Assembly (NCBI GenBank): GCA_964016885.1
Contig: CAXHJY010001575.1
Location: 1-33,627, forward strand
Length of the DNA: 33,627 bases
From: Eledone cirrhosa
Taxonomy: Eukaryota
Direction: 5' to 3'
Shown here in pieces: positions 7,915 through 8,100 of the stretch. The notes beneath the pieces are model-generated. The model was not told the origin of the DNA and searched no databases. It worked only from the letters and a program-made list of their open reading frames with translations. Every line of letters begins with the position of its first letter. Position 1 is the first letter of the stretch. The position numbers and the translations under genes were made by a program.

Positions 7915-7981
7915 CATATATATATACATATATAATACAATGATATTAAATAAATGGAAACTATATTTATAAAACCATATT

Positions 7982-8044
7982 TATTCTATTATATATATTT
8001 CAAGGGTTACCAAACATTTTGGTACGCTCTCATCAGATAAAATA
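7982..8044 (-). ncRNA. Minimal type-I hammerhead ribozyme (family 1)
   Basis: Minus strand: TATTTTAT-CTGATGA-GAGCGTACCAAA(ATG)TTTGGTAACCCTT-GAAA-TATATA-TA-ATAGAATA. Stem I is 8 bp and extends after an internal loop by 13 bp (7963-7975/8051-8063). Helix III is the palindrome ATATATAT. Confidence 0.8.
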
Positions 8045-8100
8045 CAAAATGTTTTATAAATATTTGACATGACCCAGGATAATATACCTTAACGGTTCAA

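What the first reader, a model, noticed from the sequence alone, without database searches (positions are those of the whole stretch)
7963..8063. Best-preserved minimal hammerhead, with palindromic ATATATAT helix III
Seen: intact core, 8-bp stem I, then an internal loop and a 13-bp extension, and a long helix II. Helix III is only the self-complementary ATATATAT. Established: minimal PLE hammerheads with palindromic helix III cleave as dimers. Inference: here a microsatellite-like (AU)n tract is a structural part of the ribozyme.
Basis: partly seen in the sequence, partly recalled or inferred. Interest (0 to 1): 0.75.

Follow-up and report, generated by a model that had tools for sequence, protein, structure and literature searches.

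The report
Penelope-element paired hammerhead ribozyme copy
This is a real copy of the small hammerhead RNA motif found at the end of a known kind of jumping gene (Penelope-like elements), one of tens of thousands in this genome; its short AT run is a fixed self-complementary stem that likely lets two copies cut as a pair, not a true microsatellite, and cutting has not been tested.

Summary
The hammerhead is there as described (minus strand 8063-7963). It is a 166-bp solo 3' end of a Penelope-like retroelement (RT plus C-terminal GIY-YIG) with Hydra-clade motifs, inserted in (TA)n. About 47,000 genomic matches carry ATATATAT.

The AT tract is structural but not a microsatellite. Its length is fixed in 94 of 100 unconditioned copies, and sister families swap it for other 8-nt palindromes: ATATGTAT, ATGATCAT, ATACGTAT. 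ATATGTAT (central U·G pairs) has 28,849 matches; its DNA mirror ATACATAT (A·C mismatches) has 281. That favours RNA pairing between two copies, the published dimer mode.

"Best preserved" is overstated. This copy has a private extra A in helix II, G·U instead of G10.1-C11.1, and no intact same-strand partner in the window, so it probably does nothing here. An invariant C·C mismatch in helix II (55 of 55 copies) is the least ordinary feature. The scan had already noted it, and similar hammerheads, on other DNA. Cleavage is untested. New member of a known kind.

The parts
7938..8103 (-). 5'-truncated solo 3' end (pseudo-LTR fragment, about 166 bp) of a Hydra-type Penelope-like element; short terminus without the optional tail
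   Evidence: 97% identical to dispersed copies; homology with siblings starts near 8103 and ends near 7938
8051..8063 (-). 5' arm of the 13-bp distal extension of helix I
   Evidence: sequence, fold
8037..8044 (-). helix I 5' strand (8 bp with 7982-7989)
   Evidence: pairs I.1-I.5 paired in 49-53 of 55 copies, with changes on both sides
8030..8036 (-). catalytic core C3-A9, CUGAUGA
   Evidence: only N7 varies among 55 copies, but the other positions were fixed by the search pattern
8002..8029 (-). helix II: G·U at 10.1-11.1, two Watson-Crick pairs, invariant C·C mismatch (8026/8005), private bulged A (8007/8008), 7-bp hairpin
7999..8001 (-). core G12-A13-A14
7991..7998 (-). helix III segment ATATATAT (A15.1 to U16.1), 8-nt palindrome
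7990..7990 (-). A17; predicted cleavage between 7990 and 7989 (AUA triplet)
   Evidence: hammerhead numbering applied; not assayed
7982..7989 (-). helix I 3' strand
7963..7975 (-). 3' arm of the distal extension of helix I
7843..7937 (.). (TA)n tract next to the 3' terminus, the likely insertion target
   Evidence: most short-terminus siblings also run into (TA)n

Best explanation
This is a leftover, 5'-truncated copy of the terminal repeat of a Penelope-like retroelement with Hydra-clade motifs, and it carries a type I hammerhead whose ATATATAT segment likely forms an 8-bp helix III by pairing with the same segment of a second copy, which would let two hammerheads in a tandem transcript cut after AUA. 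Shown: the motif, its high copy number, its sense-strand position about 1.4 kb behind the RT-EN frame, the covariation of helices I and II, and the exchange of ATATATAT for other 8-nt self-complementary sequences. Inferred: the dimer fold with swapped helix I strands, cleavage itself (probably slow or helped by the element's protein), and a role in cutting unit-length RNA from tandem transcripts. This genomic copy is most likely inert.
For: Parent element. L031 holds RT (YRDD) followed by a GIY-YIG domain (PF01541 E 0.0013, below the curated cutoff), with the hammerhead in sense at the 3' end. Of 30 loci picked by the EN region alone, 17 have an intact-core hammerhead in sense downstream. Copy number: 14,795 exact matches of one pattern against 0 control; 93,134 against 2,430 control for the wider C·C group. 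Covariation in 55 copies from 16 sequence groups: II.2, II.3 and II.5-II.7 are paired in 50-53 of 55, I.1-I.5 in 49-53 of 55, with several pair types each. Helix III in the first 100 listed matches, middle six bases unconstrained, counted by eye: ATATATAT 51, ATATGTAT 24, ATGATCAT 13, ATACGTAT 2, ATGTGCAT 2, ATGTATAT 1, so 93 of 100 are self-complementary when G·U is allowed. Genome-wide counts are ATATATAT 47,314, ATATGTAT 28,849 and ATACATAT 281. The last two are the same DNA duplex read in opposite directions, so the 100-fold excess points to pairing in sense RNA. The central two bases would be an unpaired 2-nt loop in a monomer, so their pairing points to a dimer. Monomer helix III is not predicted to form (P(A15.1-U16.1) = 0.002). 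The active dimer scores -43.0 against -38.2 kcal/mol for two monomers. Head-to-tail pairs exist (L109, 2.7 kb apart around a truncated RT-EN body; L110, 205 bp apart). Literature: dimer-type minimal hammerheads in pLTRs (PMC4209133); hammerheads and (TA)n targeting in the Hydra clade (PMC8557442).
Against: No cleavage data. The dimer gains only about 4.8 kcal/mol over two monomers, and an inactive cofold is slightly lower still (-44.1). The 21-bp helix I of the monomer must be opened to swap strands, so dimerisation may be slow or rare. Same-strand neighbours are uncommon: among the 100 copies listed, I counted 12 inverted pairs within 1 kb and 1 direct pair within 5 kb. The ATATGTAT/ATACATAT counts reflect amplified founders, not independent events; both versions occur in at least four helix II groups (by eye), but I built no tree. 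G10.1-C11.1, called highly conserved in PMC4209133, is present in only 10 of 55 copies and is G·U here. In the anole Poseidon element the hammerhead needed protein, was dispensable for insertion in vitro, and no RNA reads ended at its site (PMC11167929).
Confidence: 0.75

Rival explanations
1. The hammerhead works as a monomer, clamped by the long helix I and helped by the element's protein; helix III is a 2-3 bp hairpin and the palindrome is a by-product of hairpin pairing.
For: The monomer forms a 21-bp helix I that would have to be opened for a dimer. Direct tandem partners are rare. A PLE hammerhead was shown to be protein-assisted (PMC11167929).
Against: A 2-bp A-U/U-A stem costs about 3.5 kcal/mol. 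A monomer gives no reason for the central two bases to be UA, UG, AU or CG and almost never CA.
Confidence: 0.13
2. The AT tract is a captured piece of (TA)n target DNA or a slippage-prone microsatellite, used by the ribozyme or kept as a DNA-level endonuclease site.
For: The element inserts into (TA)n. (AT)4 is the commonest version. One-unit slips occur in 5 of 100 and 2 of 100 copies and leave the tract palindromic.
Against: Founder length is always 8 nt in the families examined. Non-repeat palindromes replace it. The strand asymmetry of ATATGTAT against ATACATAT fits RNA G·U pairing. The tract lies about 55 nt inside the terminus, not at a junction.
Confidence: 0.06
3. The fold is kept as a protein-binding or reverse-transcription signal near the element's terminus, and cleavage is marginal or irrelevant.
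For: The invariant C·C mismatch and the loose 10.1-11.1 pair look unlike an optimised catalyst. Hammerhead mutants did not impair insertion in vitro in PMC11167929. Element ends lie about 50 nt and more beyond the cleavage site.
Against: Tens of thousands of matches across families with unrelated stems keep the full catalytic core, A15.1-U16.1 and a non-G H17, which is what cleavage requires.
Confidence: 0.06

Closest known systems
Hydra-clade Penelope-like elements and their hammerheads (Craig et al. 2021, PMC8557442; I read passages, section 11, the Hydra sheet of File S1 and File S2)
   Same: C-terminal GIY-YIG; DKT, RW[K/R], CxCX5C, CxxC and CxH motifs; (TA)n targets; type I hammerhead in sense near the 3' end. 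File S2 also shows U·U, G·U or G-C at the first helix II position, A at position 17, and short self-complementary helix III. It lists an octopus member, Hydra-1_oBim.
   Different: The File S2 Hydra hammerheads have 3-4 bp helix III arms around a 1-3 nt centre (for example acta-t-tagt, acca-a-tggt). By eye none has ATATATAT or a C·C mismatch at the fourth helix II position. This element is longer (more than 3.4 kb in L031 and still 5'-truncated, about 1.4 kb 3' UTR, against under 3 kb typical) and is a different family from Hydra-1_oBim.
Minimal and palindromic-helix-III hammerheads of metazoan PLE pseudo-LTRs (Cervera and de la Pena 2014, PMC4209133; parts 1-2 of 4 read, supplement not seen)
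   Same: Type I, in PLE terminal repeats, mostly solo or as inverted pairs, long helix II, palindromic helix III, predicted dimers with low activity.
   Different: Helix I is longer here (8 bp plus a distal helix, against 4-5 bp). There is no bulge after A9, G10.1-C11.1 is not conserved, and the palindrome is 8 nt rather than 4.
Dimer-cleaving PLE-associated hammerhead variants (Lunse, Weinberg, Breaker 2017; not held, seen only as a title and as summarised in PMC6765202 and PMC6466107)
   Same: Short palindromic stem III and cleavage as dimers in tandem arrangements.
   Different: Could not be compared in detail. Its alignments may already include AU-only palindromes or the C·C variant.
Poseidon PAc hammerhead of Anolis (Frangieh et al. 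2024, PMC11167929; main text read)
   Same: PLE terminal-repeat hammerhead; two alternative termini (short and tailed); AT-rich targets.
   Different: Different clade. That hammerhead overlaps the ORF start, is minimal, and was assayed as protein-assisted; nothing is assayed here.

Membership tests
Type I hammerhead ribozyme | Core CUGANGA, GAA, A15.1-U16.1, H17 not G | tested here: met
   8036-8030, 8001-7998, U7991, A7990
Type I hammerhead ribozyme | Helices I and II supported by covariation, ends open at helix I | tested here: met
Type I hammerhead ribozyme | G10.1-C11.1 closing pair | tested here: not met
   G·U in this copy; G-C in 10 of 55 copies. Non-G-C pairs here are also common in published Hydra hammerheads, so this does not exclude membership of the Hydra type
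Type I hammerhead ribozyme | Match to an Rfam hammerhead model | tested here: not met
   no hammerhead among 9 matches at E<=10; none among the 150 rows shown of 263
Type I hammerhead ribozyme | Self-cleavage 3' of H17 | not testable with these tools
   needs an in vitro assay
Dimer-type PLE hammerhead | Helix III too short for a monomer and palindromic | tested here: met
Dimer-type PLE hammerhead | Located in the terminal repeat of a PLE, in sense | tested here: met
Dimer-type PLE hammerhead | Tandem same-strand partner | tested here: inconclusive
   present at some family loci (L109, L110); no intact partner for this copy within the window
Hydra-clade PLE | RT followed by C-terminal GIY-YIG | tested here: met
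Hydra-clade PLE | DKT in place of DKG; RWK motif | tested here: met
   KSDKTN in L031 and L104; RWR (R for K) in sister family L104 only, since L031 is truncated there
Hydra-clade PLE | CxCX5C linker; CxxC and CxH around conserved E and N; no CCHH | tested here: met
   CNCRIKSNC, CKLCIEE, NSCIH in L031; same in L084, L096, L107, L108; absence of CCHH judged by eye
Hydra-clade PLE | (TA)n insertion preference | tested here: met
   3' flanks of 30 copies
Hydra-clade PLE | Phylogenetic placement with named Hydra RTs | not tested
   compared by eye only with Hydra-1_Obim and Hydra-2_Amil as printed
Naiad PLE | N-terminal GIY-YIG and no canonical hammerhead | tested here: not met
   EN is C-terminal
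Non-LTR retrozyme | Short non-coding tandem repeats, one hammerhead per unit | tested here: not met
   no tandem array at this locus; copies are truncated ends of a coding element

The most novel reading that the evidence does not exclude
These elements carry a distinct structural variant of the dimer hammerhead: an invariant C·C mismatch at the fourth pair of helix II and a relaxed 10.1-11.1 pair form a tertiary or protein-binding site. The shared AU-only 8-bp helix III can be titrated by (UA)n RNA read from the flanking target microsatellite, so cleavage is regulated by the insertion context.
Probability: 0.12. Interest if true: 0.6.

Novelty: new member of a known kind. Interest (0 to 1): 0.27.

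Why it matters
The kind is known, so the value is modest. The family offers a natural test of the dimer model, which for PLE hammerheads rests on weak in vitro activity. Tens of thousands of copies show that the centre of helix III tolerates U·G but not A·C, which a monomer does not explain. The set of palindromes (ATATATAT, ATATGTAT, ATGATCAT, ATACGTAT) and the C·C mismatch give ready-made variants for compensatory assays. It also extends the Hydra clade, described from few families, to about 90,000 hammerhead-bearing matches in one genome.

Tried and rejected
Rfam scans gave no hammerhead match; hits were microsatellite-driven miRNA models.

Naiad assignment was considered because of the YRDD RT and (TA)n targets, and rejected because the EN is C-terminal. 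The RT-EN in L037 is a separate, opposite-strand insertion (47% RT identity) and was not used for linkage.

The idea that U at 11.1 is CpG decay private to this copy was rejected: it is the family state. The idea that ATATGTAT is post-insertion CpG decay of ATACGTAT was rejected, because decay should give ATACATAT about as often.

Expression: no RNA holder was listed. The three runs laid were contigs of one sample of unknown kind and say nothing on RNA ends; they were not used as evidence.

Pfam found no RT family for the L031 RT frame. My scripted dimer energy for the 14587 copy is invalid, because helix I was taken from a misfolded MFE; it was ignored.

Lunse et al. 2017 could not be read. 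Five literature searches gave no listing that describes an AU-only helix III or the C·C mismatch; I saw listings only for most of those papers. The supplements of PMC4209133 and of Lunse et al. were not seen and may contain either feature.

Full report
Observation. It has a 13-bp distal helix, a 6x6 internal loop, an 8-bp helix I, CUGAUGA (8036-8030), helix II (8029-8002), GAA, ATATATAT (7998-7991) and A17 (7990). Folding recovers helix I and its extension (z -2.73). A descriptor requiring the core, a self-complementary helix III, at least 4 bp of helix I and a paired helix II finds three hits in the window (5259+, 14619+, 8036-) and none in 200 resampled windows. Rfam does not detect it. Helix II is less tidy than 'long helix II' suggests: G·U, A-U, G-C, a C·C mismatch, G-C, a bulged A, then 7 bp. 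The bulged A is missing from all 29 closest siblings.

What it belongs to. A search of the own genome (3.0 Gb) returned dispersed copies at 96-97% identity from 2,098 candidates, 40 of them scored. Many copies share sequence far upstream. One locus, L031, shows the typical PLE layout: an inverted terminal piece, then a truncated RT frame, a GIY-YIG domain, about 1.4 kb of 3' UTR, the hammerhead in sense, and a terminus in (TA)n. Of 30 loci retrieved with the EN region alone, 17 have an intact-core hammerhead in sense downstream, and several more have the homologous region with a damaged core. The protein motifs are DKT, RWR (in a sister family), CxCX5C, and CxxC and CxH around E and N. They match the definition of the Hydra clade in Craig et al. 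2021, which has canonical hammerheads and (TA)n targets and includes an octopus family. I did not place it on a tree. The window copy is only the last 166 bp or so (8103-7938), between (GA)n/(TA)n and (TA)n, with the short terminus seen in 21 of 30 copies.

Is the AT tract a microsatellite? I used patterns anchored on both sides of the tract and counted the first 100 listed rows by eye. In this family 79 of 100 copies have exactly ATATATAT-A, 5 have slipped by one AT unit, 1 lost one base and 15 carry substitutions (4,892 matches). In a family with unrelated helices I and II, 95 of 100 are exact and 2 are longer by two bases (6,797 matches). So the tract slips occasionally after insertion, but founders keep 8 nt. 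Leaving the middle six bases free gave 93,134 matches against 2,430 for the reversed control. Among the first 100 rows were ATATATAT 51, ATATGTAT 24, ATGATCAT 13, ATACGTAT 2, ATGTGCAT 2 and ATGTATAT 1, all self-complementary with G·U allowed. The other 7 were ATGTTCAT 2, ATAGGTAT, ATAAGTAT, ATCATCAT and two chance-like rows. Fetched examples of the alternative palindromes sit in complete hammerheads; helix I runs 3-10 bp in 23 of 26 rows and 0-1 bp in 3. The conserved property is therefore 8-nt self-complementarity, not the AT repeat.

Dimer or monomer. Genome-wide counts are ATATATAT 47,314, ATATGTAT 28,849 and ATACATAT 281. ATATGTAT and ATACATAT are one DNA duplex in opposite orientation. 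In sense RNA paired with itself, the first gives tandem U·G pairs (-2.2 kcal/mol) and the second A·C mismatches (+2.6). The 281 are at the level expected from scattered post-insertion mutation (1 of 100). The two central bases could not pair within a monomer hairpin, so their restriction to UA, UG, AU and CG is best explained by pairing between two copies. Caveat: counts follow amplified founders. Both A and G versions occur in several helix II groups (by eye), but the number of independent switches was not measured. Energetically, monomer helix III is not populated (P = 0.002). The active strand-swapped dimer scores -43.0 against -38.2 for two monomers, and an inactive cofold scores -44.1. 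The margin is small, and the monomer's 21-bp helix I is a kinetic barrier. This fits the low activity reported for PLE dimers (PMC4209133) and the protein assistance seen for the anole element (PMC11167929). Head-to-tail partners exist (L109, L110) but are rarer than inverted pairs (1 against 12).

Helix II. In 55 hammerheads from 40 loci chosen for diversity and conditioned only on the core and helix III, pair II.4 is C·C in 55 of 55 and in all 16 sequence groups. Its neighbours covary. A G-C 'repaired' version has 658 matches against 76,163 with C·C. The first pair, 10.1-11.1, is G·U 16, A-U 15, G-C 10, U·U 7 and other 7. Non-canonical pairs at that position also appear in the published Hydra table, where I saw no C·C. 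Its function is unknown; a tertiary contact with the helix I internal loop or a protein site is my guess. I found it before consulting the scan's notes, which had already recorded it.

This copy. The nearest same-strand relative in the window (2711-2623) lacks C3-U4 and the 5' strand of helix I, though it keeps the cleavable 3' half. The intact relative at 14587-14716 is on the other strand. With no promoter evidence, no expression data and a private helix II insertion, this locus is most likely inert.

Verdict. This is a new family member of a published kind: dimer-type hammerheads in PLE terminal repeats, Hydra type. The scan has met it repeatedly. Interest 0.27.

Noticed in passing
window 8221-8251 (+): GAAAC precedes CTGATGA, followed by a hairpin. 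This may be the reordered (non-circularly permuted) hammerhead that other notes of this scan describe in this genome.
   Followed up: no
window 14566-14790 (+): Sister-family hammerhead (core at 14619, ATATATAT, C·C, A·C at 10.1-11.1) with the long tail and a short inverted copy of its 3' end upstream.
   Followed up: partly
window 2623-2860: Inverted pair of truncated 3' ends of a related family. One has ATATATAT with a broken core, the other ATATGTAT without a core.
   Followed up: partly
window 5259-5290 (+): Minimal hammerhead of another repeat family with 4-nt helix III ATGT; a relative in L009 has ACGT.
   Followed up: partly
window 7650-7843 and 15150-15230: Near-perfect inverted repeats containing CTGATGA, probably inverted junctions of other truncated PLE ends.
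   Followed up: no
window 11160-11704, 23873-24031, 24594-25260: The same 57-58 bp tandem repeat occurs at three separate places in the window.
   Followed up: no
L107 3309-1561 (-): A 583-codon open RT-EN frame in a sister family, suggesting fairly recent activity.
   Followed up: no
L102, L103, L101: The distal extension of helix I appears to covary between subfamilies (different complementary arms), by eye only; GC-rich-stem families seem to lack it.
   Followed up: partly
L122 220-300 (+): A second core and helix II start immediately after the cleavage site, a local duplication inside the hammerhead.
   Followed up: no
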